Under the pieces are notes generated by a model that was not told the DNA's origin, did no database searches, and saw only the letters and a program-made list of their open reading frames with translations. This document shows positions 3,893-64,000 of a DNA stretch of 64,000 nucleotides, piece after piece (position 1 is the stretch's first letter; the number at the start of each line of letters is the position of its first letter). The DNA comes from Ostreococcus lucimarinus. Its lineage: Eukaryota. The stretch lies in assembly GCA_000092065.1 (NCBI GenBank), contig CP000589.1; one strand, 5' to 3'. A program made the translations under genes and the position numbers.

Positions 3893-3969
3893 TACTTTTG
3901 TGGAACCCGTGGAGTAAAGAGTCGTAACAACAATGAATCAAATATACAACATGTTTTCTATGTTTTCTT

Positions 3970-5787
3970 CTACAAAAGTCCCGCGCGCGTTATCTCGAGC
4001 AACTCGTCCCCTGGCGCCGAGCGCACGTGAAAGTTCACCAGCGTCGGTTGCATGTACGCGATGGAAATGGACATCGCGAACGGGTACACGGGATGAAAAA
4101 CGTACTGCACGCGTCGCTTGCTTCGTCCGTTATTCGCCAGGGAGTTGTTCAGCATTAACTTGAAACTCACGCGACGCCGTTGACCCTGTTGCGCGCTGAC
4201 GAATTTAATGCCAAAGTCCACGTGCGGCTGCAAGCGGTCGATGGCGGTGATCGTGCGCTCGTCGTAAGAGAAGAGCCTCTTGTCAAAGTACGGCGACAGC
4301 GACCTGAACTGCGGTGGGTAATCTTGCGTACGGAACAAGCGCGTGGCGATGGTGTTGAACGCATCCTCATCGTCGTCATCGATCTCCGCCGTGGACGTGT
4401 TACACACAGCCAGCGCCTCTCCTTGGCTCCCCGCGAAGCGCGCCCAGGGAAAATCGCCGCGCGGCGGAGCGTTTAACTCTTCGTCCACCATTCCATTCGT
4501 ATCGCTCATGCTCGTCGCCGTCTGCGTAAATGCATTCTTACTCAGATCGAAGACACCATACATCGTCGGCCCGATGACGTTGTCCCCGCGCCGCGCCAGC
4601 GCGTACTCGGGCGTGCCAAACTTGATGAGGAGCAAATTCGCGTCCAGGATGCGCACGCGAAGCATCACCAACGACACGTATCGCTCAAAGTTTCGGTGCA
4701 ACAGTCGCAGCGCGTCCGGGCTCGACGATCGTCGCGCGTCGTGATATAACGATGTCACCAAACGCTGCGTCAATCCGGTGAGCATCGACCGCCCCGAGGC
4801 GGCGAATCCCGTCGCGCGCGTTCGCGCCTTCTCCGCCGCTTGCGGTTCGGCGTCCATCCAAGCCCGCTCGCGCGCGTCTTGTGCGGCTACAGTTTCCTTG
4901 TCCTCGTTCGTGATGTGCTCACCGATCGATGCGACTTCTTCGAATCGTCCCTCTTCGTGCACTCGCAGAAAAATCACGCGCTGATGCTTCATCGACAACA
5001 CCGCGAGCGTGTCGCCTCGAAGACTCACCGCGCCGTTCCGCGGCAGGTGCATGAAATCGTCTCGAAACGTGAACGAGTCCAATTTCTCGCCCGTCTTCGT
5101 GCGCACGAGATGTAACACGATGCGCTGCATCGAAGGCGCTCCCGAAATCCCGCCCGACGTCTCCTGCGTCTCCGTTCCGCGTCGCCCTCTCGCTCGCGCC
5201 GCCGCTCGCGCCGGCGCCCCGTCTTCGTCCTCTCGCATCGCCCCTCCCGCGGCGACCGACGACCCATCCAACGGCGTCGCGCTCGCCGCGACGATGTACT
5301 CCCCATCGTGCACCTCGAGCATGAAATCCTTCACGATCGCGTCGTCTCCATCGCTCAGATGCGTCGTCCACTTCTCTTCAAAGTACGACCAAAACGATCC
5401 CATCGCCCGCTCCGTCGCCTCGCTCGCCACCACCTCCCCTCGCTTATCCCGCCTCAGGCACGCCCGCATTCCCCTGAACGCGTACCCCACCAGCTCTTGC
5501 TGATGTCTCGACACGCACAGCAGCATCGACCCGTCGTTCGTGAACTTTCTCGGCGCCACGTCGGGAAAATCGCACACGCGACACGTCGCGTTCGGCGTCA
5601 CCCCGCTCGCGTACACTCGCCGCGCGTTCGCGTGATCGTTCCCCGCGCCTCGTCCCAGCGCCGCGCGATCGAGCGTCCACCTGAAGACGCTCGCGCGCGA
5701 CGTCTCCGCGTCGCCGTCGCGTCTTCCGCGCGCCATCCCGTCGCCATCGTCGCCGTCGTCGTCGTCGCGCCGCCGCTTCTTATCCAT
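3970..5787 (-). CDS. DET1: DET1 (de-etiolated 1) homologue, 605 aa
   Basis: Minus-strand ATG at 5787 (MDKKRRRDDDD). DET1-like along its length: ARRVYASGVTPNATCRVCDFPDVAPRKFTNDGSMLLCVSRHQQELVGY matches the plant RKFTEDG..ISFSRNHQELIVY block. The C-terminus has YFDKRLFSYDERTITAIDRLQP ... VFHPVYPFAMSI ... VNFHVR. The 410 extra codons in track ORF 3970..7017 are Arg/Ala low complexity overlapping the opposite-strand GT gene. Confidence 0.88.
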   Translation of the reverse strand: MDKKRRRDDDDGDDGDGMARGRRDGDAETSRASVFRWTLDRAALGRGAGNDHANARRVYASGVTPNATCRVCDFPDVAPRKFTNDGSMLLCVSRHQQELVGYAFRGMRACLRRDKRGEVVASEATERAMGSFWSYFEEKWTTHLSDGDDAIVKDFMLEVHDGEYIVAASATPLDGSSVAAGGAMREDEDGAPARAAARARGRRGTETQETSGGISGAPSMQRIVLHLVRTKTGEKLDSFTFRDDFMHLPRNGAVSLRGDTLAVLSMKHQRVIFLRVHEEGRFEEVASIGEHITNEDKETVAAQDARERAWMDAEPQAAEKARTRATGFAASGRSMLTGLTQRLVTSLYHDARRSSSPDALRLLHRNFERYVSLVMLRVRILDANLLLIKFGTPEYALARRGDNVIGPTMYGVFDLSKNAFTQTATSMSDTNGMVDEELNAPPRGDFPWARFAGSQGEALAVCNTSTAEIDDDDEDAFNTIATRLFRTQDYPPQFRSLSPYFDKRLFSYDERTITAIDRLQPHVDFGIKFVSAQQGQRRRVSFKLMLNNSLANNGRSKRRVQYVFHPVYPFAMSISIAYMQPTLVNFHVRSAPGDELLEITRAGLL

Positions 5788-28985: not shown

Positions 28986-31820
28986 ATGCGCGCGAACCGC
29001 GACCGCGCGTTTCACGGCATACACTCCGACGCCACCGTCGCCGGAAGCGACGGCGCCGCGCCGCGTCGTCGCGACGAGCGCGAGCTCACCGAGCTCGACG
29101 TCTTCGGGACGCTCAAGGAAAAGCACCACAAAAACACCGTGAAAACGATGCGCGCGATGTACGCGGACGTCCGCGAGCGACGGCGAAGGGCGATGGAAGA
29201 TTTAACGCCGCTCCAACGCCGGGCGCGGGCGAGCGGAGGCGTGAATCCGTTCGATTGGTCGGATGGACACGTGGGACACTTTTACGAGTTCATGGTGGCG
29301 GAGAACGCGGCGAGCGAACGAGGAGCGAAGTCGCGCGCCATGGTGTTCGAGAGACAGGATGAGTCGGGACAAAACGTGGTGGAGGAATTATTCGATAGTT
29401 TTAGGGCGGACTACGCGGATCGGTGGCGGGCGGAGGTGGTGTGCGGGATCGACGCGAGCGCGGGGGCGTGCGAGCGGTATAGGGACGCCGCGGCGGAGGC
29501 GTGCGAAGCGTTGCTGGGAGACGACGACGCACGAGAGATGGGGGCGTGCGAGACGTATTTGCACACGTATGGGATCGTGCACGAGCATTGGCACGTGGAA
29601 GATTACGTGCAGGCCAGGAATACGTTGGGATACTCAAAGCCAAAGATGGAGGCGCCAAAGCGATATCCGGCGAATTTGTGGGGAGACTCGGTCTTGGCGC
29701 GCTCGAGAAACGGGGAATGTTCGGCCTGTAGTACTCAAGTGATCACTCTTCAAGGATATGTCGACGTGGATGTGGGGACGACCTATTCTTTAGGCGCCGA
29801 GCGAGAGGACAAGTGGGTGTTCGACGCCGAGCGATGGGCGCACGACGTACCAATGACAAAGTTCAAAATTGCGAAGACGTGTTGCACGAACGCGCAATTC
29901 GCGTGCTTTGTCGAAACAGGAGGTTATGCCGACAGAAGTCTTTGGAGTCACGAAGGGTGGCGATGGGTGGAAAAACGACGCGCCGCGGGTGAATTGTTGG
30001 CGCCTCTCGGTTGGAAAGTGTCGCCGTGCGTGAAATTCTTAAGCAACGGCGAAGAAGCACCCGCGTGTGAGAGTTGGCGATGTGCGTACTTTGATGAAGC
30101 GCCACGCGCACTACATCCGCAGCACCCTGTGTGCCACGTGTCGTGGTACGAAGCCGAGGCGTATTGTAACTGGATTGGCGCACGTTTACCGACTGAGGCG
30201 GAATGGGAAGCAGCCGCGAGAACGACGACGAGTTGGTCGACGGACAAACAAACCACAAAGCGTCGCACGTATCCGTGGGGTGAAGAATCTCCTTCAGAAG
30301 ACAAAGCAAATCTTGGTGGACACTTTGGAGGTACTATTGATGTCAGTGCTTTGGGTGCGGGCGATAGCGCGCACGGTTGCCGACAGATGTTGGGCAACGT
30401 TTGGGAATGGACGGCGTCGGCTTTCCTGCCTTTTCCCGGTTTTCAAATGGACTACCCGTATCGCGAAAACAGCTGTCCGTGGTTTGGGTATAGAAAAGTC
30501 GTCAAAGGCGGGTGTTGGGCGACGAGCGCGCCCATCGCGCGTGCGGCATATAGACACTCGTTTTGGCCGCACATGCACAACACGTTCAGTGGATTTCGCG
30601 CCGCTATCGGTGGCTCGCAAAAGCGCGCGCTTTGCATTCTTCCGCAAAAAATACAGAGCGGCGCAAAATGTGGCAACGTGGTCACGATGGAAAGAATTTC
30701 TTCGCATCTCGAGAAGAATCACATCATGAGCATCACGCGTTCGATTTTTGATCTGCCGCAGTCAAAGGAGGATTTGGCGAACATAATACACGCGATGAAC
30801 GTCGATTTGATCATCGTCTTGCACGCTTTCAAGTGCGGTGCCGTGATCGATACCGTACAGGCATATAAAGACATGCTCCCGCCTATCGTTCTAGTGCTCG
30901 GCGGCACCGACGTCAACGTGGATTCTCGAAAGTCTGCGCTCGCTGAGGAACAATTTCGCCGACGCGTTGACGTCGCGACAAAAGTTGTCTCGTTTTCCTT
31001 GTCCATGATAGAAGCCGCACCCAAAGGTGCGTTGAAATTTATCGAGTCGGACTCGACATCTAAAACCAAACTGATACCGCAAGGAGTCATGCTCCCGAGC
31101 ACGTTGAAGGCTTCAAAGCGCAAAAGGCTTGCAGATGAAACTGTGGAAACACCCGGCGAGCTTCAAGGCACCTCGCGGCCTGCGGACCTATCGATACCGA
31201 TCATGTTCCTACCTGCGGGATTACGCCCAGTCAAGGACGTGTGCTTCATAAACGACGCATTGACTGCGTATAACTCAAATGGAATCAAAGCACATCTGAC
31301 TGTGTGCGGCCCTTTCCTCGATTCGGCGTACGCGAAACGCGTGCGATGTCAGTTTGACGGTCGTTCCGATTGTACCTTGCTAGCAGGTGTCGATCGCGCG
31401 ACGCTTGTAAGGTTCATCGGCGAGGCGAAAGTTTTGTTGAACACCTCGGTATCGGAAGGTCAAAGCGGAACCATCGCTGAAGCGATGATGGTGGGGACTT
31501 TAGTCTTCGCGCGAGATATTCCAGGCAATCGTCAGCTCTTTGAGTTGTGCGAAGCGAGAGCGCTCGCAGCACTCGGTCCTGCGACGATAAAGGAGATGAA
31601 GGGCGATGGATGGGAGGTTCACCCGGTGGGAGTACTATTCTCGACTCCAGAGGGTTGCATGCGCGCTTTCGAAGCATTAGGTCTCGAAAGAGAGTCGACC
31701 GAAGACGTGGATGTATCGTTGATTAGACTCCGCGCGCGCGAAGGCGTCGCCGAACTGTCATTGAACGAAGCGAAGCGTTGGACGGAAATTTTAGACGAAA
31801 TCACCGCGCACGGTTCATGA
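28986..31820 (+). CDS. Fusion protein: DinB-like + FGE-sulfatase domains (EgtB/OvoA/SenA-type sulfoxide/selenoxide synthase) joined to a C-terminal GT-B glycosyltransferase (SenB-like?), 944 aa
   Basis: ATG at 28986, followed by one uninterrupted ORF. DinB-type metal motifs are FDWSDGHVGHFYEF and GIVHEHWHVEDY (29580-29594). FGE/EgtB C-domain motifs are HPVCHVSWYEAEAYCNWIGARLPTEAEWEAAAR, YPWGE, GNVWEWTASAFLPFPGF, VKGGCWATS and NTFSGFRAA. The GT-B half has CILPQKIQSGAKCGNVVTMERI (N-terminal) and LNTSVSEGQSGTIAEAMMVGTLVFARDIPGN (C-terminal). Confidence 0.85.
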   Translation: MRANRDRAFHGIHSDATVAGSDGAAPRRRDERELTELDVFGTLKEKHHKNTVKTMRAMYADVRERRRRAMEDLTPLQRRARASGGVNPFDWSDGHVGHFYEFMVAENAASERGAKSRAMVFERQDESGQNVVEELFDSFRADYADRWRAEVVCGIDASAGACERYRDAAAEACEALLGDDDAREMGACETYLHTYGIVHEHWHVEDYVQARNTLGYSKPKMEAPKRYPANLWGDSVLARSRNGECSACSTQVITLQGYVDVDVGTTYSLGAEREDKWVFDAERWAHDVPMTKFKIAKTCCTNAQFACFVETGGYADRSLWSHEGWRWVEKRRAAGELLAPLGWKVSPCVKFLSNGEEAPACESWRCAYFDEAPRALHPQHPVCHVSWYEAEAYCNWIGARLPTEAEWEAAARTTTSWSTDKQTTKRRTYPWGEESPSEDKANLGGHFGGTIDVSALGAGDSAHGCRQMLGNVWEWTASAFLPFPGFQMDYPYRENSCPWFGYRKVVKGGCWATSAPIARAAYRHSFWPHMHNTFSGFRAAIGGSQKRALCILPQKIQSGAKCGNVVTMERISSHLEKNHIMSITRSIFDLPQSKEDLANIIHAMNVDLIIVLHAFKCGAVIDTVQAYKDMLPPIVLVLGGTDVNVDSRKSALAEEQFRRRVDVATKVVSFSLSMIEAAPKGALKFIESDSTSKTKLIPQGVMLPSTLKASKRKRLADETVETPGELQGTSRPADLSIPIMFLPAGLRPVKDVCFINDALTAYNSNGIKAHLTVCGPFLDSAYAKRVRCQFDGRSDCTLLAGVDRATLVRFIGEAKVLLNTSVSEGQSGTIAEAMMVGTLVFARDIPGNRQLFELCEARALAALGPATIKEMKGDGWEVHPVGVLFSTPEGCMRAFEALGLERESTEDVDVSLIRLRAREGVAELSLNEAKRWTEILDEITAHGS

Positions 31821-31938
31821 AGTAACTTATCATTTATTATTTCACGTATTATTTCCTCACCTAGTGCATCGCCGCGGCTAAGCAACCGAAGTTCACGACC
31901 GCCATTTCGTATTATTCGTTCGCTGACTATTTCTCTCT

Positions 31939-34725
31939 TCAGAGATGGTGCTCCTGCTGGCTCTTTCGCCTCTGAAACGACGCGAGAATATCCAGTTTTG
32001 CCCGTGTTTTCTCAGAGAATGGTGGCGCCGTGTTGTCGCCACCAGTGGATTGTGTCTGTCCAGGCAAGTAGTTTGCGTTAGCAGGTACGAGCGCGCCGAA
32101 CGGCTCGTAGTTCTTCAGAAGCCTCTCTAACTGTTCTGGACTTGCGTGTGTTGGAATCGGGGGATGATACAAACCCAAACGCCCTTTCGACATCAACTCG
32201 CTCTTCTCGCACTGGTACATGCGACACAGGAATGCTGTGCGAACTCGTCGTGATCGAGTCTCTGTTACTTCTGGCGATTGTGTGACTCGCATTTCGGGCA
32301 TCTCGTGGTCTGTTTTATCGTCCGTCGACCCGCCGTGTAGACCCGCGTTTTTAACGAAAGAAACATCATCTGTGGAATTCGCGAGCTGAGTCTGCGCAAT
32401 ACACAATCGCCTGATTCTTCGAATGGGAATGAGAGCGACCGCCCAGATACCAATGTTCGCCCAGAGTGTGGTAGAGATTCCGTCATCAAAGCGATAAAAC
32501 ACAAGACAGCCAAACAGGATTTGCAGCAGGTTGATCACTCGAGCAGTAATCGTGATGCCGAAGGAGTCCTCGCGGAGTTTCGGCGGCGCCGTGGTGAGAT
32601 ACAAACCTTGGTACTTTTTGCTCCAGTACAGCACGAATATCCCAAAGACGCCTACGGCGTAACTCACGGGAAGTGCCGGCGCGTAAATTGCCGATAGACC
32701 GAGAATCTTGAGCAACTCGGCGTACGAACGCGCCAGCTGGAAAGCTGGAGGTTGCACAAGACTCTCTTGCATCGACAACGTCTTCGACATTGGGGCGAGT
32801 ATTTTCACTTGGATAATGTGTTTGATGTTCATGTTCCTTAAAGGTAACAAGAGAACGTTGAACACTTGCAAATAGAACGCATATTCGACGAAACCACCGG
32901 GAACGTACCAGTTACACACACCATCTGCCTTCGACGAGCATCGATTGGTGATGATCGGAACGACGACGTAGTTGAGCAAGTTAACAAACGTCAACGTCGC
33001 GATCAGCATGTTTGTCTCAATCGTTTTCGTCTTATAAACCTCAAGTTGCGCGAGATAAACCGTCAATCGATCCAGCAAACCGTTAATGATAACCACTACG
33101 AGTGACGTGGAAGATGCGACGAGTTGCAGTCTGATGGACGAAGTCGTCGAAGCCGTAGATTGGAAAGCGACCTCGTTCGTAATGGTTTCGAGTTGATTAC
33201 TACGCAAGACCTCGAAAACGTACTGAATAACGCCTCCAACGCACAAAGCGCCCGCGAGCACGAACTTCGCCCCGATGGCGGTAGCCACAACCTCCCAGTT
33301 ACTGTCTCGTCGACGAAGGTGCTGCCAGTTGATATCGCTCGGTTCGGGCGCGCGAGTGACGATGAGTCGACGTCCGTTAAAGTCTGGTGAATGTTTGCCG
33401 GTGCATCGATCGATGATCGATTCTCCGTAATCGCCGCAGTGATCTTCGCAACAGTTGATCGCGTGCTGCTCGTAATTGAACGTCACCACGGCGCTCCCCA
33501 GATGCGAGTTGCCGTTTTCCCCGAGCGCCACGACCTTCGCCTTGAGTTCGGCAATTTTTGCATCCAACTTTACTAACGCTTCTCGCGTTGGTTTCGTACC
33601 TTTGAGTGCGATCATTCGATACAATTGTCGACGCAATAAGATGGATTTATTGATCTTCTCGTCCATGTTCGCGCCTTCGTTGTCATCGAGAATCGCCTGA
33701 ATTTCGTTTCTTCGCTGCACGGCGTTTTTGATTTCTCTCTCCATAGTCACGAGTCGTCGAGTGTTCGTAAGATGACAAACAGAAACAACCTCGCCGTAAT
33801 GCGAGAAAAAATCCGCGATTTGCTGTCGAGTCCACTCGTTCCCTTTTCCGAGCCCGGTGACGAGCACCGAGTAGTCGCTCGCGGTCACCACACTCGACTT
33901 GATGATCGCCGCCGCCGTCGCGCGATTACGAGTGTAAAACATGTCAAAGAGTAAAAACACCACAGTCACGACGATTGAAACCGCCTGAAACTCCTTAGGC
34001 GTTTTATTCACAGTGGCGGCGACCCGAGGTACGCAACACACCGCGGTCTGCGTCGTCGTCAGCACCTTCTCGAGCGTGCACGGATAGTGCGTCTGGCACG
34101 CATTCGTCGCGTCAAACGTCCCGATCGCTCCTTCGTAATCGCATCGCATCGGGCAGTTATAAAAACTCGCCAACGTCGGGACTCCACACCTCGACCCTTG
34201 ACTCGTGCTCAGCACAAAGCCGCCCGTCTCGTACGTCCTCGCGCACGTCGTCGTCGCGTCGGCTCCCGCCGTCGCGTCCCACCCCGTCACCGCGTACGAC
34301 GCCGTGAACGCCCTATCCGTCACGTTCGTCGTCAACGAGTACGCGTTGATTCCCGCGAGCACCACCGCGAGCAAACCGAACTGCAGCACCGTGTCCAGGT
34401 ACAGCGCCAGCGACACGCTGCTCGCGCCCACGCGTCTGTGACTCGCCGTCATCGAAAATCGCCGCGCGCTCGACGGCACCTGCACGCCGCGATGATCGAC
34501 GTCGTACTCCAGCACGCCCGCGCGCGCGTGCGCCCGCCTCGCGGCGGTCATCGCCGCGTCCGCGCGCGCCACCGGTCCGTCCTCGAGCGCGCCGAACGTC
34601 GTCGCCGCGCGCGACGTCGCGCGCGTCGCCCGGCGCTCGACCGCGCGCAGCTCCACGACGTCGGCGTCCGCGCCGTCGACGACGACGACGTCCGCGACGT
34701 CGTCCGTCGCCGCGGCCGTCGCCAT
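31939..34725 (-). CDS. OSCA/TMEM63/CSC1-family (RSN1_7TM) stress-gated cation channel homologue, 928 aa
   Basis: The track start at 34758 is GTG; ATG is at 34725 (MATAAATDD). The cytosolic RRM-like domain carries ASDYSVLVTGL and FFSHYGEV. VTRAPEPSDINWQHL is the family hallmark (APEPxDIxWxNL), followed by a multi-TM C-terminal block. Confidence 0.8.
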   Translation of the reverse strand: MATAAATDDVADVVVVDGADADVVELRAVERRATRATSRAATTFGALEDGPVARADAAMTAARRAHARAGVLEYDVDHRGVQVPSSARRFSMTASHRRVGASSVSLALYLDTVLQFGLLAVVLAGINAYSLTTNVTDRAFTASYAVTGWDATAGADATTTCARTYETGGFVLSTSQGSRCGVPTLASFYNCPMRCDYEGAIGTFDATNACQTHYPCTLEKVLTTTQTAVCCVPRVAATVNKTPKEFQAVSIVVTVVFLLFDMFYTRNRATAAAIIKSSVVTASDYSVLVTGLGKGNEWTRQQIADFFSHYGEVVSVCHLTNTRRLVTMEREIKNAVQRRNEIQAILDDNEGANMDEKINKSILLRRQLYRMIALKGTKPTREALVKLDAKIAELKAKVVALGENGNSHLGSAVVTFNYEQHAINCCEDHCGDYGESIIDRCTGKHSPDFNGRRLIVTRAPEPSDINWQHLRRRDSNWEVVATAIGAKFVLAGALCVGGVIQYVFEVLRSNQLETITNEVAFQSTASTTSSIRLQLVASSTSLVVVIINGLLDRLTVYLAQLEVYKTKTIETNMLIATLTFVNLLNYVVVPIITNRCSSKADGVCNWYVPGGFVEYAFYLQVFNVLLLPLRNMNIKHIIQVKILAPMSKTLSMQESLVQPPAFQLARSYAELLKILGLSAIYAPALPVSYAVGVFGIFVLYWSKKYQGLYLTTAPPKLREDSFGITITARVINLLQILFGCLVFYRFDDGISTTLWANIGIWAVALIPIRRIRRLCIAQTQLANSTDDVSFVKNAGLHGGSTDDKTDHEMPEMRVTQSPEVTETRSRRVRTAFLCRMYQCEKSELMSKGRLGLYHPPIPTHASPEQLERLLKNYEPFGALVPANANYLPGQTQSTGGDNTAPPFSEKTRAKLDILASFQRRKSQQEHHL

Positions 34726-57328: not shown

Positions 57329-58387
57329 CTAGTTGCTAATTTTGCTCGCTTGGAGTCGTTTTTTAATCGTGCAGTTCGCGATGAGCGCATCTAAGTCGTC
57401 CTTCCATCCCAGCATTGAGCACAGCTCGGCGACGCCGTCGTCGCACTGACCCAAGAACAACGCGTCACGATAATTTGTCGCCTCATCAAAGTCAAATCCC
57501 GTGCCCCGACCGAGCCCAGCCATCCGATATAATTTCGTGACGCGCGTGTTCTGCGCCTCGCCGCAACGTTCGAGATTAATCAAGAGCCTCGGTACGTGCT
57601 CCTTCGGCCTTTCGATCAAACCGGCGAACGGATGGACGACTAAACTCGTTCCGATGACGATGAGCAAGTCGCACACCTCGAAGTCTTTTTGCGCGCACTC
57701 GAAGAATCGACGCGGAAGATTTTCGCCAAAAAACACGATATCCGGCTTGACAAACTCGCCACATTTGGCGCACGTCATCGGCGTTCCCGCACGACACGCT
57801 CTCTCCACTTCGTAGATGTTGGCGTCGTGTCCATTCAAACACTTCGCGCTGTCGAAATTACCGTGTGCGGCGACGACTTTATCCTTCGGCAGCCCCGTGG
57901 CGCACTCCAACGAATCGATGTTTTGCGTAAAGCATCGCCGCAACAGCCCGCGGTCGTGCAACAGCTTAATGAAATAATGCGTCGGCGTCGGGGCGTAGAG
58001 CCCCGGATACAGATCCTTCGCGAGCTTATAAAACGCCTCGGGCTTCTCCCTAAAGTACCCAAGCTCGAAAATCGCCTGCGGATACGGCAAATCGTACTCG
58101 CCCAATCGCGCGTACAACCCGCGCTCGCTTCGAAAATCCGGTATCCCCGCGCTCACCGATATCCCCGCTCCCGTCATCACCACCACGTTTTTCACCCCGC
58201 CGCGCTCGATGTGCTTCGCGATCCCGCGAAGATCGAACGTTTCGAGCGCCGTCGCCGCCGCCGCCGCGCTCGACTCGCCGAGTCGCTCCGCCGCCAGGCG
58301 TTCCATGAGCTCCAGCATCTCCGTCGACTCCCGACCGAACCCGTACCCCGACGACGACGACGACGACCCGCTCGACGATGTTTCCGA

Positions 58388-58428
<41 letters not shown>

Positions 58429-58561
58429 GCGCGCCGCCGTCGGCCCCGCGCGAGGCATCGACACCGTCGCGCGCCGCGCTCGCGTCGTCCGCGCCCGCGT
58501 CCGCGCGCCGCGCGCGCGCGCGCGCCTCGTCGTCGTCGCGCGCCTCGTCGTCGTCGCCCAT
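57329..58561 (-). CDS. NAD-dependent protein deacetylase, sirtuin (SIRT2/Hst2-type) with acidic poly-Asp N-terminus, 410 aa
   Basis: ATG at 58561 (MGDDDEARDDD). Motifs: GAGISVSAGIPDFRS, TQNIDSLE, HGNF (catalytic His), zinc ribbon C..C...CAKCG, VIGTSLVV. Confidence 0.9.
58394..58426 (-). repeat. (GAC)11 coding microsatellite (poly-Asp tract in the sirtuin N-terminus)
   Basis: There are 11 consecutive GTC triplets on the + strand, giving D x11 in the minus-strand protein (ARDDDDDDDDDDDARSE). Confidence 0.9.
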
Positions 58562-58655
58562 CGCGCCGCGCGTCGTCGCGTCCTCGCCGGTCAATGCCGT
58601 CGCGCCGGCCGCGCCGCGCCACATCGACGCGCGCGCCGACCGCGCCGCCGACGCC

Positions 58656-59879
58656 ATGGGCGCGGACGTCGAGATGCGCGACGACGCGGACGCGACGACG
58701 GCGATCGCCGACGCGGACGCGGACGAGACGGCGCTCGACACGTCGCGCGACGACGACGTCGACCTCGCGCAGAAGATTTTCGATCTCGAGCTCGCCGAGG
58801 GCGCGCGCGACGAGACGGCGGCGGTGATGGCGATCGTCGAGCGACGGAACATGGCGGCGACGTACGCGACGCTGTGCGAGCGGTTCGCGTGGCGCGCGGA
58901 CGCGGCGCTGACGGCGAAGATGGCGGACGCGAACGCGAAGCGGTTGGGAGAGATCGAAGCGAAGATCGAAGACGCGAAGGAAAATCTCGGGGACGTGGAG
59001 ATACGGGACGCGATGTGCGAGCGGGCGGAGTTTTACGCGAGCGTGGGGGAGATGGAGAAGAGCGAACGGGCGTACGAGGAGACGGAGGCGAAGACGGCGT
59101 CGATCGGGCAAAAGATGGACTGCGCGTTCGCGCTGATGCGCGCGCGGTTTTCGAGGTTGGAGCTGCACGAGGTGAAGAAATTGATCGAAAAGATTAAGGA
59201 TATGCTGGATCAACCGGGCGGGGGGGATTGGGAACGAAAGAACCGGTTGAAGGTGTACGAAGGGTTGCACGCGGTGGCGACGAGGAATTTTGAAACGGCG
59301 ACAAAGCTGTTTTTGGACTCGTTGAGCACGTTCACGTCGTACGAGCTGTTGTCGTACGATGATTTCGTGTTCTACACCGTCGTCTGCGCCGTGGTTTCGC
59401 TGCCGCGCACCGAACTCAAGGCGAAGGTGATCGATTCGCCCGAGGTGTTGAGCGTGCTCAACCGATTGCCCGGTCTCGGCGACTTTTTAAACGCCCTGCA
59501 CAAGTGTGATTATCGCACCTTCATGTCGGCGTTCCCCGTCGTCGCCGCGCAAGTGGAAAAGTCGGTGTGGATGAATCCCCATTTCAGGTACTTTTTGCGC
59601 GAGGTGCGCGTCGTGGCGTACGCGCAATATTTGCAAAGCTACAAGAGCGTGACGGTGAAGAGCATGGCGGATAGTTTCAACGTGAGCGAAGACTTTATCG
59701 ATCGCGAGCTCTCGCACTTCATCGTTTCTGGTAGATTGAACTGCAAGATTGACAAGGTTTCGGGGGTGTTACAAACCAACCGACCGGACTTGAAGAACTC
59801 GCTGTACCAAACTTTGATCAAGGACGGCGACGCACTGTTGAACAACGTATCCAAACTCTCTCGAGTGATAGATCTTTAG
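58656..59879 (+). CDS. RPN7: 26S proteasome lid subunit RPN7 (PSMD6), PCI domain, 407 aa
   Basis: ATG at 58656. RPN7 blocks: LGDVEIRDAMCERAEFYASVGEMEKSERAYEE, DWERKNRLKVYEGLHAVATRNFETATKLFLDSLSTFTSYEL, YRTFMSAF. The PCI region is YKSVTVKSMADSFNVSEDFIDRELSHFIVSGRLNCKIDKV. Confidence 0.92.
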   Translation: MGADVEMRDDADATTAIADADADETALDTSRDDDVDLAQKIFDLELAEGARDETAAVMAIVERRNMAATYATLCERFAWRADAALTAKMADANAKRLGEIEAKIEDAKENLGDVEIRDAMCERAEFYASVGEMEKSERAYEETEAKTASIGQKMDCAFALMRARFSRLELHEVKKLIEKIKDMLDQPGGGDWERKNRLKVYEGLHAVATRNFETATKLFLDSLSTFTSYELLSYDDFVFYTVVCAVVSLPRTELKAKVIDSPEVLSVLNRLPGLGDFLNALHKCDYRTFMSAFPVVAAQVEKSVWMNPHFRYFLREVRVVAYAQYLQSYKSVTVKSMADSFNVSEDFIDRELSHFIVSGRLNCKIDKVSGVLQTNRPDLKNSLYQTLIKDGDALLNNVSKLSRVIDL

Positions 59880-60095
59880 ACGCGCGCCGGTGACGATTTG
59901 ACCACCTTGGCGATTTTAAATCAACCGTTTTCAAGCCATCAGACGAATTCTCCGCGCGCCGAAATCGGGCGTCTCTCAAACCAAGTCGCTTTTCGCGCGA
60001 ACGACGCGCGGGCGACGCTTTTTGTCACCGAAATTCAGCCTAAACCACCGCCCGCCTTCACTCCGCCGCGCAGCGCGCGTCGCGACTCGATCGCG

Positions 60096-61031
60096 ATGTA
60101 CGATGACAGCGACAGCGACAGCGACATCGCCTACGTCAGGCACGTCTTGCGGTACATGTACCCAGGATCGACGCCGAAAAACGGCCGAGTCATCGTGTTG
60201 CCGGCTGGGACGCTCGGCGACGGGAAGTACGGCGACGAGGAAATCGACGGCGAGTTCTGCGTCGCGCTCCTGATGGACGACGGCGTGAACGTCGATCGAT
60301 GGAGGGTGCGCGTGTACGATAACTCGTTCGACGGTTGGCGTTTACTCGGCGTTGGGATCACGAGCTTGTGTTGGAACCACGTCGGACCGTCGCTGCGCAG
60401 GTGCGAGCTACAGCTCGAGGAAAAGCCGCAGCCGGCGTCGACGTCGGCGATGGATGCGTTGGACTTGAACACGTGCCGAGCGCCGGCGGTGGGAGAGCAG
60501 AACGGTTATTTTGGCATAGGCATCTACAACGGAAAGAATACGCAGAATCTGGGCACGCTGTGGAGAAGCGCGTATCAACTGGGCGCGGCGTTCGCCTTCG
60601 TCATCGGGCGTCGATTCAAAAAAGAAGCGAGCGACACGCCAAAGTCATGGACACAGATTCCAACGTTTGAATACAGCGATTGGGATGATTTCGTGCGTAA
60701 ATCGCCCGTCAGTGCGGTGTGGGTCGGCGTTGAGATGGGCGGTACCCCGCTCGAAAATTTTGAGCACCCGCGAAACGCCGTGTACATACTCGGCAGCGAA
60801 GACACTGGGTTGAACACGACGATGCTTCGAGCATGTCAGCACCACATCGCATTACCAACCACTGGTACGCGGAGTCCGAGTTTCAACGTCGCCGTCACGG
60901 GCGCAATCATAATGTACGACCGCGAGCTCAAAAGGCGAGCCGCCGCGGCGAAGCTCGCCGCGCTCCCGACGCAAAATCGTCGAGACGGCATAGACAGCGT
61001 GAAACCACTCAAGTCGAGCGCCTCGCATTAG
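60096..61031 (+). CDS. SpoU/TrmH-type RNA 2'-O-methyltransferase domain protein, 311 aa
   Basis: The track start at 59898 is TTG; the first ATG is 60096. SPOUT motifs: GIGIYNGKNTQNLGTLWRSAYQLGAAFAFVIG, AVYILGSEDTGL, IALP...SFNVAVTGAIIMYD. Confidence 0.75.
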   Translation: MYDDSDSDSDIAYVRHVLRYMYPGSTPKNGRVIVLPAGTLGDGKYGDEEIDGEFCVALLMDDGVNVDRWRVRVYDNSFDGWRLLGVGITSLCWNHVGPSLRRCELQLEEKPQPASTSAMDALDLNTCRAPAVGEQNGYFGIGIYNGKNTQNLGTLWRSAYQLGAAFAFVIGRRFKKEASDTPKSWTQIPTFEYSDWDDFVRKSPVSAVWVGVEMGGTPLENFEHPRNAVYILGSEDTGLNTTMLRACQHHIALPTTGTRSPSFNVAVTGAIIMYDRELKRRAAAAKLAALPTQNRRDGIDSVKPLKSSASH

Positions 61032-61129
61032 TCTTTTTTAGCCTGTTTATAGTCTGTCATTCACGCTTCGTTCGCCCTCGCGTCGCGCCCTCGCGCCGCG
61101 CCGCGCCGCGCCCGGCGCGCCGGCGAGTT

Positions 61130-61157
61130 GGATAAGTGCGCGCCGAGAGCCTTATCC
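61130..61157. promoter_or_regulatory. Inverted pair of GGATAAG (I-box / GATA-type) motifs upstream of LOV-HK
   Basis: GGATAAG (61130-61136) and CTTATCC (61151-61157) are separated by a 14-nt spacer. The pair lies about 180-200 nt upstream of the LOV-HK ATG within CG-rich sequence. Confidence 0.3.
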
Positions 61158-61336
61158 GTACTTCGCGACGTCCGACGCCGCCCCGAAGGACTTCTGCGCG
61201 CCCGACGCGACGCGCGGGCGTCCAAGACGTGCGTTAGGGGCGTCTGGCGCGCCGCCGATCGCGCGCGCGTCGCGCGTCGCGCGCGAAGGCGTCGTAAAGC
61301 CGCGTGCGCGCGGCCGCCGCGACGTCGACGCGCGCG

Positions 61337-64000
61337 ATGTCGTGCCCGTTCGGCCACGATCGAGCGCCCGCGGCCGTCGCGACGGTGGACGACGATGACA
61401 TCACGAAAGTAATCGTCACCGACGGCGAGCGAGGGACGAAGCGACGGGCGGTGGAGGAGGCGACGAGGGAGGAAGACAAACCAGAGACGCCGAGGGCTGA
61501 CCCCGCGGCGCTCGAGGCGGCGCTCGAGGAGGAACGAGCGCGCAGAAAGCGCGCGGAGAACGAGTTGATGAGCTTGAAGGCGATGTATAGACAGTGCAAG
61601 GCGATGTCGACGGTGCAGAAGGATATCGCGGTGAAGGAATTAGCGATGGACTCGTGCGCGGAGGGTATCACCATCGCGGACTTTACGCAGCCGGACCAGC
61701 CGTTGATTTACGCAAACGTGGGATTCGAGGTAATGACGGGATACAGCGTGCAGGAGACCGTAGGGCACAATTGTCGATTCTTACAAGGGCCGGGGACGGA
61801 TCAAAACGAACTCAACAAGCTTCGGAATGCGATTAAGAAGGGCGAGGCGGTGACGGTGGTGTTGAAGAACTACAAAAAGTCTGGCGAAGAGTTTATGAAT
61901 CAGTTGTCGCTCACGCCAATTCGTGACGCAGACGGACAAGTGATGTACTACGTGGGAATCCAATCCGATGTCACCGAGCTGTTTAAGCGACGCGATGACG
62001 AGCTGAACGCGCTAAAAATGATGGCACGCGCCGAGGCGGCGACAGAAGCCAAGTCGAGATTTTTAGCGCACATGTCGCACGAGATTCGCACGCCTTTGAA
62101 TGGGCTCATCGCCGTGGGGCAATTATTAGAAGACACAAATTTGGATCGGTTGCAAAGGGAGTACGTATCTACGGTACGTACGAGTGGGGAAACGTTGCAA
62201 GCGCTCATCAGCGATATTCTTGACTTCAGCCGGGTCGAGGCAGATAAGCTCGTGCTCCAGTGCGAACCGTTCCACCCAGAGGTAGTCATCGGCAACGTTA
62301 TGGAGATAACAGCCATGCAGTCAGCGAAGAAGAAGATAAACATCGGTTACCACGTGGATATCGGGGTGCCCAAAATCGTCATGGGTGACGCGATGCGCTT
62401 GCAACAAGTGTTGCTGAATTCCATCAGTAACGCCATCAAGTTCACCGACGCAGGCAACATCATGATTCGACTTTACCTCGGCAGAGAGGACACGACGGAA
62501 GTCGCGAGGCAAGCGTTCTTGGAAGATGGCGAAGAAACGCACCACGCCAAGATGGTTCGCTCCTATTCCGCCGGTTCGCTCGCGTCGACACAAAAGGACT
62601 GGCTCGCGCCTCTCAAGTGCTTCCTGCACATGTGCCCGCATTTCTCGGGCAAGTTGAGCGAAGGTGGGAACAAGCCGACGGATGATATGACATCGGATAA
62701 TGAATCCTGGTTTTTGCACTTTTACGTCAAGGACACGGGCATGGGGTTAGATCAAAGCACAATTCATAAGATCTTTCAATCGTTTCAGCAGGTTGAAACG
62801 GGGGCGACGCGCAAATACGACGGCACTGGTCTCGGCTTGGCGATTTCGCGCAAATTGTGTGAAGCGATGGGCGGAACGATGTGGGCCGAAAGTCAAGGGC
62901 TCGGCAAGGGGTCGACTTTCCATTTTTGTATTAAGTGTAAGGCGGTTTCGGAGGATTGGATGAAAGAGAACCAAAAATCGCGCAAGCAACTCGCGAGCGG
63001 GGCGGAGTCGCTCCGGCAGCTCGAGCGCGATTTGAGCGTAGATTATGCGGCGCATTTCAAAAGACCAGGCGAAAAGCTGAGCGTGGTTCTTTACGACGAA
63101 TCTGACATGCTGCGGAGCACGTTGTCCGTGGTGTTGAAGCGATGGGGATTTGCCGTGACGGTTTACGGCAACGCGAAAGATCTCGTCGGTTACATGAGCA
63201 AAGCGATGGATGGTGAAGTTACCGATGTCGCCATTATCGCTGAGTTGAGCAACAACGCCGTAGATTTCATTTATGACTGGGCAAAAGGCAGAGGTTTGCT
63301 GAACGGAGTGAGCGCGGGGCAAGGAAACACGTTCAGTATCCAGTCAAGTGGAGATGACAAACGCCGTTCCAGCGACACGAGCAAGCTTCCACCTTTTGTC
63401 CTTTCGACTTGGCCAGTGGTGCAATCAACCGGCTTTGACACGTCGGACCCTCGGTGTGCGTGGGCAAAGGATAGCGTAGAGGGAACGGAGTCGAGCATTG
63501 ATTCCGTCAAGGGAACCGCCGTTCGAGATTTCTTCTCCTCCATACGATCGCATCTAATTTCGAGACCGGTGCGACACAACAGACTTCGTCGTACTCTCGA
63601 GACGGTTCTTGACGAAAAGGCTCATCACGCCGACGCCGCGGACACTGCGCGTACGGATAGTCCGACGCGAGCGTCTGGGTGCACTCGACGGAAGGTCGAT
63701 TTCGAAGATGGTGTCTCTGGCCAACATGTCTCTGGCCAACATTTGCGAATCTTACTTGCAGAGGATCATCCCGTGAACATGAAGGTCGCAAAAGCTGTGT
63801 TGAGCCGCCTCGGGCACTCCGACGTCACTGGGGCGAAGGATGGGGCGGACGCGTTGGCCAAGGTGCAGGCTGACCCCGCGGGACTCGACGCGTTCGACAT
63901 CGTTCTCATGGACTTACACATGCCAATCATGGGCGGTATCGAGTGTACGCAGCAGTTGCGAAAGCTTTACCCAGACTGCAAGGTGCCAATCATCGCCGTC
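61337..64000 (+). CDS. LOV-HK: LOV-domain hybrid histidine kinase (LOV-HK: LOV + HisKA + HATPase_c + receiver), 3' end beyond the window (at least 888 codons)
   Basis: This ORF is not in the track because it runs off the window. I translated it by hand: ATG 61337, with an in-frame TAA at 61295 upstream and no stop through 64000. The LOV core is GITIADFTQPDQPLIYANVGFEVMTGYSVQETVGHNCRFLQG (photoactive Cys TGT 61772-61774) ...KNYKKSGEEFMNQLSLTPI..YYVGIQSDVT. The H-box is FLAHMSHEIRTPLNG (His 62078-62080). The N-box is LLNSISNAIKFT and the G-boxes are KDTGMGL and GTGLGLAISRKL. The receiver is ILLAEDHPVNMKVA...DIVLMDLHMPIMGG (Asp 63911-63913). Confidence 0.92.
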   Translation, partial: MSCPFGHDRAPAAVATVDDDDITKVIVTDGERGTKRRAVEEATREEDKPETPRADPAALEAALEEERARRKRAENELMSLKAMYRQCKAMSTVQKDIAVKELAMDSCAEGITIADFTQPDQPLIYANVGFEVMTGYSVQETVGHNCRFLQGPGTDQNELNKLRNAIKKGEAVTVVLKNYKKSGEEFMNQLSLTPIRDADGQVMYYVGIQSDVTELFKRRDDELNALKMMARAEAATEAKSRFLAHMSHEIRTPLNGLIAVGQLLEDTNLDRLQREYVSTVRTSGETLQALISDILDFSRVEADKLVLQCEPFHPEVVIGNVMEITAMQSAKKKINIGYHVDIGVPKIVMGDAMRLQQVLLNSISNAIKFTDAGNIMIRLYLGREDTTEVARQAFLEDGEETHHAKMVRSYSAGSLASTQKDWLAPLKCFLHMCPHFSGKLSEGGNKPTDDMTSDNESWFLHFYVKDTGMGLDQSTIHKIFQSFQQVETGATRKYDGTGLGLAISRKLCEAMGGTMWAESQGLGKGSTFHFCIKCKAVSEDWMKENQKSRKQLASGAESLRQLERDLSVDYAAHFKRPGEKLSVVLYDESDMLRSTLSVVLKRWGFAVTVYGNAKDLVGYMSKAMDGEVTDVAIIAELSNNAVDFIYDWAKGRGLLNGVSAGQGNTFSIQSSGDDKRRSSDTSKLPPFVLSTWPVVQSTGFDTSDPRCAWAKDSVEGTESSIDSVKGTAVRDFFSSIRSHLISRPVRHNRLRRTLETVLDEKAHHADAADTARTDSPTRASGCTRRKVDFEDGVSGQHVSGQHLRILLAEDHPVNMKVAKAVLSRLGHSDVTGAKDGADALAKVQADPAGLDAFDIVLMDLHMPIMGGIECTQQLRKLYPDCKVPIIAV
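63713..63742 (+). repeat. Perfect 15-bp in-frame tandem duplication inside LOV-HK (VSGQH x2)
   Basis: gtctctggccaacat occurs twice back to back, in the linker just before the receiver domain. Confidence 0.9.

What the first reader, a model, noticed from the sequence alone, without database searches (positions are those of the whole stretch)
61337..64000. LOV-histidine kinase photoreceptor gene missing from the ORF track (runs off the window)
Hand translation of frame 2 from ATG 61337 gives at least 888 codons with no stop. It encodes a flavin-binding LOV domain (GHNCRFLQG with the adduct-forming Cys), HisKA (SHEIRTPLNG), HATPase_c (DTGMGL, GTGLGLAISRKL) and a receiver domain (LMDLHMP).

This is the architecture of the LOV-HK blue-light and circadian photoreceptor described in Ostreococcus (Djouani-Tahri et al. 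2011, from memory). It is otherwise mostly a bacterial design.

The family is known. The gene is still easy to miss here, and it is the strongest taxonomic clue in the window.
Basis: partly seen in the sequence, partly recalled or inferred. Interest (0 to 1): 0.5.

Follow-up and report, generated by a model that had tools for sequence, protein, structure and literature searches.

The report
Ostreococcus LOV-histidine kinase gene, 3' end cut
This is the intact gene, missing only its last 41 codons at the window edge, for the known blue-light-sensing LOV-histidine kinase of the tiny marine alga Ostreococcus, a previously described clock photoreceptor family, so the call is correct but the gene is ordinary.

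Summary
Window 61337-64000 (+) is an 888-codon open frame. It starts at the first ATG after an in-frame stop and is cut by the window end. Every quoted motif is present.

Pfam finds PAS/LOV, HisKA, HATPase_c and a truncated receiver. A contig 99.8% identical from the same species puts the stop 126 nt beyond the window, giving 929 aa.

The protein is collinear with the O. tauri LOV-HK (about 74% identity). Orthologues occur across Ostreococcus, Micromonas, Bathycoccus and Mantoniella. The flanking genes are the same in five Ostreococcus lineages. All flavin-contact, kinase and receiver active-site residues are conserved. The family is already known.

Details added here:
- The Cys146-to-His248 spacing is 102 residues in all 26 aligned orthologues, and one predicted helix spans it.
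- Conserved Cys-Pro motifs (MSCPF, HMCPHF) lie in low-confidence regions of the model.
- Other Ostreococcus lineages have a short intron after codon about 36. This window does not.

The species is not O. tauri or O. mediterraneus.

The parts
61337..64000 (+). LOV-HK coding sequence, codons 1-888 of 929. It has no intron in this species and is cut by the window end.
   Evidence: The full length comes from L001/P0001.
61032..61336 (+). 5' intergenic region between the SpoU-methylase gene stop and the LOV-HK ATG (promoter and 5' UTR). It holds the inverted repeat GGATAAG-N13-CTTATCC at about 61130-61157.
   Evidence: The repeat is not conserved in L002 or L004.
61337..61495 (+). N-terminal region of very low model confidence (aa 1-53), starting with the conserved Met-Ser-Cys-Pro-Phe motif (CPFGH = 61343-61357).
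   Evidence: pLDDT is below 50. MSCP[FY] is found in exon 1 of the Ostreococcus lineages whose N-terminus could be read.
61502..61651 (+). Long N-terminal helix (aa 56-87) and the A'alpha helix (aa 92-105) that precede the LOV core.
   Evidence: Secondary structure of the full-length model.
61664..61978 (+). LOV core (aa 110-214). The adduct Cys146 is codon 61772-61774. Flavin-contact positions are N145, R147, Q150, R163, N178, N188 and Q209.
   Evidence: Pfam PAS_9. E 1.2e-35 to Chlamydomonas phototropin LOV1 with a gap-free alignment. These residues are conserved in 30 orthologues.
61973..62242 (+). Continuous Jalpha/DHp alpha1 helix (aa 213-265) plus DHp alpha2 (271-302), which together form HisKA. 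The phospho-accepting His248 is codon 62078-62080.
   Evidence: The Cys-to-His spacing is 102 residues in all 26 orthologues.
62264..62944 (+). Catalytic ATP-binding domain (aa 310-536) with the N box (N361/N365), G1 (DTGMGL 466-471), F (FQSF) and G2 (GTGLGL 496-501) boxes.
   Evidence: Pfam HATPase_c E 1.6e-22, matched in two stretches. Invariant columns are listed.
62483..62707 (+). Mostly low-confidence insert (aa 383-457) between the N box and the G1 box. It holds the conserved HMCPHF motif (aa 431-436 = 62627-62644).
   Evidence: pLDDT is below 50 for aa 386-419 and 438-454, and 54-62 around the motif. The motif is conserved in Ostreococcus and Bathycoccus. The cytokinin-receptor-type chain 7p8e has an insert at the same place (alignment).
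63080..63643 (+). Pseudo-receiver domain (aa 582-769), a (beta-alpha)5 fold with two inserted loops. Active-site positions are D587, E588, E636 (codon 63242-63244, at the phospho-Asp position), T691, R743 and P744.
63644..63736 (+). Low-confidence linker between the pseudo-receiver and the receiver (aa 770-800).
   Evidence: pLDDT is below 50.
63749..64000 (+). Receiver domain, first about 84 of about 122 residues. E809, D810 and the phospho-accepting D859 (codon 63911-63913) are inside the window. T889 and K911 lie beyond it.
   Evidence: Pfam Response_reg E 3.7e-15, profile positions 1-76 of 111. The rest is read from L001.
59898..61031 (+). Upstream neighbour, a SpoU-family methylase gene. 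It is the conserved syntenic partner of LOV-HK.
   Evidence: Pfam. The order SpoU, LOV-HK, AI-2E transporter is seen in L001, L002 and L005, and LOV-HK followed by the transporter in L003 and L004.

Best explanation
The stretch encodes the Ostreococcus orthologue of LOV-HK, a soluble hybrid histidine kinase that senses blue light and feeds the circadian clock.

Proposed mechanism, with each step marked as shown or inferred:
1. The LOV domain binds a flavin. In blue light Cys146 forms a covalent adduct with it. This is inferred from complete conservation of the LOV signature.
2. The change travels along one continuous helix (aa 213-265) that runs from the end of the LOV core into DHp helix 1, which carries His248. 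The helix is predicted. The invariant 102-residue Cys-to-His spacing is shown.
3. The catalytic domain phosphorylates His248. This is inferred from intact N, G1, F and G2 boxes.
4. The phosphoryl group passes to Asp859 of the C-terminal receiver, then to an HPt protein and response regulators such as TOC1. This step comes from the O. tauri literature, where it is itself a hypothesis.
5. Between kinase and receiver sits a pseudo-receiver that cannot be phosphorylated, because Glu636 replaces the Asp. By analogy with ShkA, it probably holds or releases the true receiver and so gates phosphotransfer. The fold is shown. The role is inferred.
Against: No biochemistry can be done here. Flavin binding, the photocycle, the direction of light regulation and phosphotransfer are all inferred. 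The last 41 codons, including receiver residues T889 and K911, are not in the window and are read from another strain's contig. The gating role of the pseudo-receiver rests on analogy only. No sequence similarity to ShkA Rec1 or to plant receiver-like domains was detected, and the full-length model has low global confidence (pTM 0.47), so its domain packing is not evidence. Sequence methods alone do not recognise the middle domain as a receiver: Pfam finds nothing for the window sequence and hhalign gives probability 13.8%.
Confidence: 0.9

Rival explanations
1. The PAS domain is LOV-like but photochemically dead, so the protein is a light-independent PAS-histidine kinase.
For: None from the sequence. 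From memory only, and not verified in any held paper: the 2011 O. tauri study reported clock effects that did not depend on LOV photochemistry.
Against: The adduct Cys and all flavin-contact positions are present and conserved in 30 of 30 orthologues. The O. tauri orthologue is described as a characterised blue-light receptor.
Confidence: 0.03
2. The open frame is a pseudogene or an assembly artefact, or it is interrupted by an unrecognised intron.
For: Four other Ostreococcus lineages do have a short intron after codon about 36. The RCC809 annotation splits LOV-HK into two gene models.
Against: The frame runs 888 codons without a stop and is homologous to the O. tauri protein throughout. It reads through GTKRRA exactly where the other lineages are spliced. 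An independent assembly of the same species has the same frame with 5 substitutions and no indel.
Confidence: 0.02
3. The gene is bacterial, either as contamination or as a recent horizontal transfer, rather than a resident algal gene.
For: Two-component kinases are typically bacterial. One orthologue (P0029) is labelled 'response regulator [bacterium]' in NCBI.
Against: The neighbours are eukaryotic housekeeping genes: SMC, OTU1, SIR2 and proteasome RPN7. RPN7 is 83% identical to O. tauri. Gene order is conserved across Ostreococcus lineages. Several orthologues carry a spliceosomal-type intron. A published LOV-HK phylogeny follows the rRNA phylogeny of Mamiellales (PMC12704426).
Confidence: 0.02
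4. The middle domain is a working second receiver that takes part in phosphotransfer (a tandem REC-REC relay), not a pseudo-receiver.
For: The acidic pair D587/E588, T691 and R/K743-P744 are retained. The Chloropicon-type LOV-HKs P0051, P0055 and P0059 still have Asp at the equivalent position.
Against: All 25 Mamiellales sequences have Glu or Gln at the phospho-acceptor position, and neither can form an acyl phosphate. Two long low-confidence loops interrupt the fold.
Confidence: 0.05

Closest known systems
Ostreococcus tauri LOV-HK (Djouani-Tahri et al. 2011, Plant J 65:578; protein P0003)
   Same: The domain order and N-terminus (MSCPFGH) are the same, and the length is nearly so (929 vs 933 aa). 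Identity is about 74% with end-to-end collinearity. All catalytic residues are the same.
   Different: It is a different species: 26% of residues differ, mostly in the N-terminal region, the insert in the catalytic domain and the pseudo-receiver loops. The window has Arg743 where O. tauri has Lys at the receiver-fold beta5 position.
Caulobacter ShkA (PDB 6qrj), a hybrid kinase with DHp-CA-Rec1(pseudo)-Rec2
   Same: It is the best full-length structural match (Foldseek E 9e-28) and the alignment covers all of ShkA. It has the same four-domain back half, with a non-phosphorylatable receiver between the kinase and the true receiver.
   Different: ShkA has no LOV domain. Its pseudo-receiver binds c-di-GMP. 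No sequence similarity between the two pseudo-receivers was detected, and no ligand is known or predicted here.
Plant cytokinin receptors (AHK4/CRE1 family; PDB chain 7p8e)
   Same: This is the best sequence match in the PDB for the kinase core (E 1e-52). It has an insert at the same place in the catalytic domain and the same order, kinase then receiver-like domain then receiver.
   Different: Cytokinin receptors are membrane proteins with a CHASE hormone-binding input. This protein has no predicted membrane segment and has a LOV input.
YF1 and SB2F1, engineered LOV-histidine kinases (PDB 4gcz, 8a3u)
   Same: The LOV core is joined by a continuous helix to DHp helix 1. They are the second-best whole-protein matches by sequence and by fold.
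   Different: They are artificial fusions without receiver domains. The aligned LOV-to-DHp stretch differs in length by 2-3 residues, so the sign of the light response cannot be carried over.
Bacterial LOV-HKs with solved structures (Erythrobacter EL346 4r3a, Brucella LOV-HK 6ph4)
   Same: They share the idea of a LOV domain controlling a histidine kinase.
   Different: By sequence only the LOV domain aligns and the kinase cores do not. They rank far below ShkA and YF1 by fold. This suggests a separate fusion of LOV to a different kinase lineage, but that is an inference.
Chlamydomonas phototropin LOV1 (PDB 1n9l, 8qi8)
   Same: It is the closest solved LOV domain, with a gap-free alignment, E 1.2e-35 and 55% identity.
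   Different: Phototropin couples LOV to a Ser/Thr kinase, not to a His kinase.

Membership tests
LOV domain (flavin-binding PAS subclass) | GXNCRFLQ signature with the adduct-forming cysteine | tested here: met
   GHNCRFLQG at aa 143-151, with Cys146. It is invariant in 30 orthologues.
LOV domain (flavin-binding PAS subclass) | Flavin-contacting Asn, Arg and Gln residues at the positions seen in phototropin LOV1. Which residues these are comes from my own knowledge of the LOV1 structure. | tested here: met
   In a gap-free alignment to 1n9l, N145, R147, Q150, R163, N178, N188 and Q209 occupy those positions.
LOV domain (flavin-binding PAS subclass) | Binds FMN and shows the blue-light photocycle | not testable with these tools
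   This needs recombinant protein and spectroscopy. It is reported for the O. tauri orthologue.
HisKA-type sensor histidine kinase | H box with the phospho-accepting histidine in a DHp helical hairpin | tested here: met
   Pfam HisKA E 4.2e-20. SHEIRTPLNG holds His248, which is invariant. The model shows helices 213-265 and 271-302.
HisKA-type sensor histidine kinase | N, G1, F and G2 boxes of the ATP-binding domain | tested here: met
   Pfam HATPase_c E 1.6e-22. N361/N365, DTGMGL, FQSF and GTGLGL are invariant or nearly so.
HisKA-type sensor histidine kinase | ATP-dependent autophosphorylation | not testable with these tools
   This needs a biochemical assay.
Hybrid kinase receiver domain | Acidic pair, phospho-accepting Asp, and conserved Thr and Lys | tested here: met
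   E809, D810 and D859 are inside the window. T889 and K911 are seen only in L001, the 99.8% identical contig of the same species. E-D-D-T-K-P is present in 30 of 30 orthologues.
Mamiellales LOV-HK orthologue group | End-to-end collinearity with the characterised O. tauri protein | tested here: met
   About 74% identity over the full length.
Mamiellales LOV-HK orthologue group | Conserved genomic neighbourhood | tested here: met
   The order SpoU methylase, LOV-HK, AI-2E transporter appears in L001, L002 and L005, and LOV-HK followed by the transporter in L003 and L004. The O. tauri locus itself was not examined.
Mamiellales LOV-HK orthologue group | Role in the circadian clock | not testable with these tools
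   This is known only for O. tauri.
Pseudo-receiver domain | Receiver (CheY-like) fold | tested here: met
Pseudo-receiver domain | Lacks a residue needed for phosphotransfer | tested here: met
   Glu636 sits at the end of beta3, where the Asp belongs. It is Glu or Gln in all 25 Mamiellales sequences.
Pseudo-receiver domain | Regulates the kinase or the true receiver, as in ShkA | not testable with these tools
   This is analogy only.
Haem-regulatory (Cys-Pro) motif | Cys-Pro dipeptide in an exposed, flexible stretch | tested here: met
   C3-P4 lies in a region with pLDDT below 50. C433-P434 lies in the low-confidence insert, with local pLDDT of 54-62. The motif definition is from PMC6356037. 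Across 30 orthologues CP occurs 55 times against 17.7 expected, but the sequences are related, so this is not an independent count.
Haem-regulatory (Cys-Pro) motif | Binds haem with a functional consequence | not testable with these tools
   There are no data. This is a lead only, and the protein is not filed under this family.

The most novel reading that the evidence does not exclude
The Mamiellales LOV-HK may be a two-input sensor. Besides blue light, its conserved Cys-Pro motifs (Met-Ser-Cys-Pro-Phe at the N-terminus, His-Met-Cys-Pro-His-Phe in the catalytic-domain insert, and CP[AFMY]H motifs in Micromonas and Bathycoccus) would bind haem or respond to redox state. The Glu-bearing pseudo-receiver would act as the gate that turns these inputs into release or capture of the true receiver. 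This would give the clock a metabolic input through the same kinase.
Probability: 0.1. Interest if true: 0.6.

Novelty: already known. Interest (0 to 1): 0.22.

Why it matters
As a gene call it matters little. LOV-HK was characterised in O. tauri in 2011 and is reported in all Mamiellales genomes examined. The useful points are practical. Genes that cross a window edge drop out of a mechanical ORF list. Prokaryote-style gene callers have truncated the N-terminus of many metagenomic orthologues by missing a short intron. The added anatomy gives concrete, testable handles on how this clock photoreceptor is regulated: a pseudo-receiver with Glu at the phospho-site, an invariant LOV-to-His spacing, and conserved Cys-Pro motifs. 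I found none of these linked to LOV-HK in the searchable literature, although the original 2011 paper could not be read.

Tried and rejected
- Naming the species failed. Cluster look-ups for LOV-HK and RPN7 gave no species name for the window's lineage. O. tauri is excluded (74% and 83% identity). O. mediterraneus is excluded because the named RPN7 cluster is only 78% identical.
- The Djouani-Tahri 2011 paper is not held. My recollection that LOV-HK affects the clock independently of its photochemistry could not be verified in held papers, so it is not used as evidence.
- The AFDB50 fold library was unavailable, so I could not ask whether the nearest structural relatives of the pseudo-receiver are other kinases' pseudo-receivers.
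- The upstream inverted repeat GGATAAG-N13-CTTATCC was checked for conservation. It is absent upstream of two of the three other lineages examined, so it is not proposed as a regulatory element. No evening-element hexamer was found upstream.
- Domain packing in the full-length model was not interpreted, because pTM is 0.47.
- Light-response polarity was not inferred from linker length, because the aligned LOV-to-DHp stretch differs from YF1 by 2-3 residues.
Full report
**Observation**

Window 61337-64000 on the + strand translates into 888 codons without a stop. The other five frames of the same stretch hold 13-44 stops. ATG 61337 is the first in-frame ATG after the stop TAA at 61295. The product starts MSCPFGH, as the O. 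tauri protein does.

Pfam finds PAS_9 at aa 111-214 (E 5.5e-19), HisKA at 238-302 (4.2e-20), HATPase_c (1.6e-22, in two stretches) and Response_reg at 805-886. The receiver match covers only profile positions 1-76 of 111 because the window ends. The gene is missing from the ORF list only because that tool omits ORFs that run off the source.

**The missing 3' end**

A database protein of 929 aa (P0001) is nearly identical. Its contig L001 matches window 60427-64000 at 99.78% identity with no gap. Inside the coding region there are five substitutions, four of them amino-acid changes (L430M, T452K, H477R, T753A), and no indel. In L001 the gene ends 126 nt beyond the point where the window stops. 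So 41 codons are missing, including the receiver's conserved Thr889 and Lys911.

**Identity and organism**

- The best named hit is the O. tauri protein P0003: 933 aa, about 74% identical and collinear from end to end.
- Further orthologues at 43-47% identity come from Micromonas-type, Mantoniella and Bathycoccus sequences.
- The neighbours in the window are eukaryotic housekeeping genes: SMC, OTU1, SIR2, proteasome RPN7 and a SpoU methylase.
- RPN7 is 83% identical to O. tauri and 78% to the cluster named O. mediterraneus. It is 100% identical only to unnamed marine metagenome sequences, some on contigs of up to 527 kb and including a Tara sample.
- The organism is therefore an Ostreococcus species other than O. 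tauri and O. mediterraneus. I could not name it.
- LOV-HK is followed by an AI-2E transporter gene on the opposite strand in all five Ostreococcus loci (L001-L005). SpoU is seen upstream in the three whose contigs reach that far.

**Sensor and kinase**

The LOV core aligns without gaps to Chlamydomonas phototropin LOV1 (E 1.2e-35). Cys146 falls on the adduct cysteine. N145, R147, Q150, R163, N178, N188 and Q209 fall on the flavin-contact positions; which positions these are comes from my own knowledge of that structure. All are conserved in 30 of 30 orthologues, with Lys replacing Arg163 in a few. His248 and the N, G1, F and G2 boxes are invariant.

The full-length AlphaFold model (mean pLDDT 68.7, pTM 0.47) shows:

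| Residues | Feature |
|---|---|
| 1-53 | Very low confidence, probably disordered |
| 56-87 | Long N-terminal helix |
| 92-105 | A'alpha helix |
| 110-211 | LOV core |
| 213-265 | One unbroken helix that contains His248 |
| 271-302 | Second DHp helix |
| 310-536 | Catalytic domain |

The distance from the adduct Cys to the phospho-His is exactly 102 residues in all 26 aligned orthologues, although the flanking regions vary greatly in length. This fits signal transmission along a rigid helical linker, as in the engineered LOV-kinase YF1, which is among the best sequence and fold matches. I did not infer whether light switches the kinase on or off.

**The 250-residue "spacer"**

The region is conserved across genera, but sequence methods do not classify it.

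- An AlphaFold model of aa 560-800, built from 15 orthologues, has a core pLDDT above 90. Its order is beta1-alpha1-beta2-alpha2-beta3-alpha3-[loop]-beta4-[insert]-alpha4-beta5-alpha5.
- At the strand ends where a receiver has Asp-Asp, Asp, Thr and Lys-Pro, this domain has D587-E588, E636, T691 and R743-P744.
- The true receiver has E809-D810, D859, T889 and K911-P912.
- The phospho-acceptor position is Glu in Ostreococcus, Micromonas and Mantoniella and Gln in Bathycoccus, which covers 25 of 25 Mamiellales sequences. Three Chloropicon-type LOV-HKs still have Asp there.

The domain is therefore a pseudo-receiver, probably derived from a once-functional receiver.

**Comparison with known systems**

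- The best PDB sequence match for the kinase core is chain 7p8e (E 1e-52). It has an insert at the same place in the catalytic domain and a gap of pseudo-receiver size before its receiver.
- A review assigns the neighbouring entries 7P8C and 7P8D to the cytokinin receptor AHK4, mentions the MtCRE1 receiver from the same study, and describes the kinase, pseudo-receiver, receiver order of cytokinin receptors (PMC10779265).
- The best whole-protein fold match is full-length ShkA of Caulobacter (6qrj, E 9e-28). ShkA's pseudo-receiver Rec1 binds c-di-GMP and frees Rec2 from a position that blocks catalysis (10.1101/675454).
- The solved bacterial LOV-HKs, EL346 and Brucella, match by sequence only in the LOV domain.

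The protein thus reads as a YF1-like LOV-DHp front end on a ShkA/AHK-like DHp-CA-pseudoREC-REC back end. A gating role for the pseudo-receiver is an inference by analogy. I found no paper in the searchable library that links LOV-HK with a pseudo-receiver or receiver-like domain. The original 2011 paper is not held.

**Function**

[quoted passage not shown] It is proposed to signal through an HPt protein to TOC1 (PMC4343026; PMC12704426; PMC9612821; PMC6137987). LOV-HK is reported in all Mamiellales genomes examined, and its tree follows the rRNA tree. The same role is the best explanation here.

**Side observations**

- In four other Ostreococcus lineages the gene has a short intron after the codons G-x-K-R, at about codon 36. 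The junctions are AG|GTGCG at the 5' end and CAG|G at the 3' end. Exon 1 reads MSCPYGF, MSCPFAH or MSCPFGY in the three lineages where it lies on the contig. The metagenome gene callers missed it and truncated those proteins.
- The window and O. tauri read straight through at this point.
- A Met-Ser-Cys-Pro-[Phe/Tyr] start is therefore present in every Ostreococcus lineage whose N-terminus could be read.
- A second motif, HMCPHF, lies in the catalytic-domain insert of Ostreococcus and Bathycoccus.
- Micromonas-type proteins have GCP[AMF]H motifs upstream of LOV.
- Both motifs of the window protein lie in low-confidence regions of the model.
- Cys-Pro occurs 55 times against 17.7 expected in 30 related sequences, and is absent from the Chloropicon-type proteins.
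- Cys-Pro motifs on flexible surface stretches are the best-known haem-regulatory motifs (PMC6356037). This is a lead, not a finding.

**Verdict**

The gene family is already known and the gene is an ordinary orthologue. Interest is low. The pseudo-receiver and the Cys-Pro motifs are modest additions that could be tested.

Noticed in passing
L002 about 1237-1500, L003 1-157, L004 676-965 and L005 1280-1560, compared with window 61337-61450: This is an intron presence/absence difference among Ostreococcus lineages. Four lineages have a short intron (roughly 100-200 nt) after codon about 36 of LOV-HK (5' AG|GTGCG, 3' CAG|G). The window and O. tauri have none. Metagenome gene callers therefore truncated the N-terminus of many database orthologues (P0002, P0004-P0006, P0009-P0013).
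   Followed up: partly
window 61343-61357 (CPFGH) and 62627-62644 (HMCPHF): Conserved Cys-Pro motifs lie in low-confidence regions of the structure model. MSCP[FY] is found in every Ostreococcus lineage whose N-terminus could be read, HMCPHF in Ostreococcus and Bathycoccus, and GCP[AMF]H in Micromonas-type proteins. They resemble haem-regulatory motifs. S-acylation of Cys3 is an alternative for the N-terminal one.
   Followed up: partly
window 61130-61157: An inverted repeat, GGATAAG-N13-CTTATCC, lies about 190-206 nt upstream of the LOV-HK ATG. The hexamer occurs only 11 times in the whole 64 kb window. The repeat is not conserved upstream of L002 or L004, and L005 has one half-site at a similar distance.
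   Followed up: partly
alignment A4, column of window residue 636 (sequences P0051, P0055, P0059): The Chloropicon-type LOV-HKs keep Asp at the phospho-acceptor position of the middle domain, while all Mamiellales have Glu or Gln. This suggests the pseudo-receiver descends from a working receiver.
   Followed up: no
protein P0029: A Micromonas-type LOV-HK seen on a contig of up to 548 kb is labelled 'response regulator [bacterium]' in NCBI. This is probably a eukaryotic contig filed as a bacterial metagenome-assembled genome.
   Followed up: no
window 57329-58852 (-) and 58209-59879 (+): The mechanical ORFs for SIR2 and RPN7 overlap by about 640 nt. The RPN7 Pfam match begins only at residue 231 of the ORF, and the database protein is 407 aa. 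The real RPN7 start is therefore well downstream of 58209 and the two genes are probably divergent neighbours.
   Followed up: no
window 2001-4000 and 30001-34000: G+C drops to 47% and to 51-53% against a window background of about 60-70%. I did not examine these regions.
   Followed up: no
literature: PMC10662239: In the Ostreococcus RCC809 annotation LOV-HK is listed as two adjacent gene models (Od09g04300 and Od09g04310). That may be a split annotation of a single gene.
   Followed up: no
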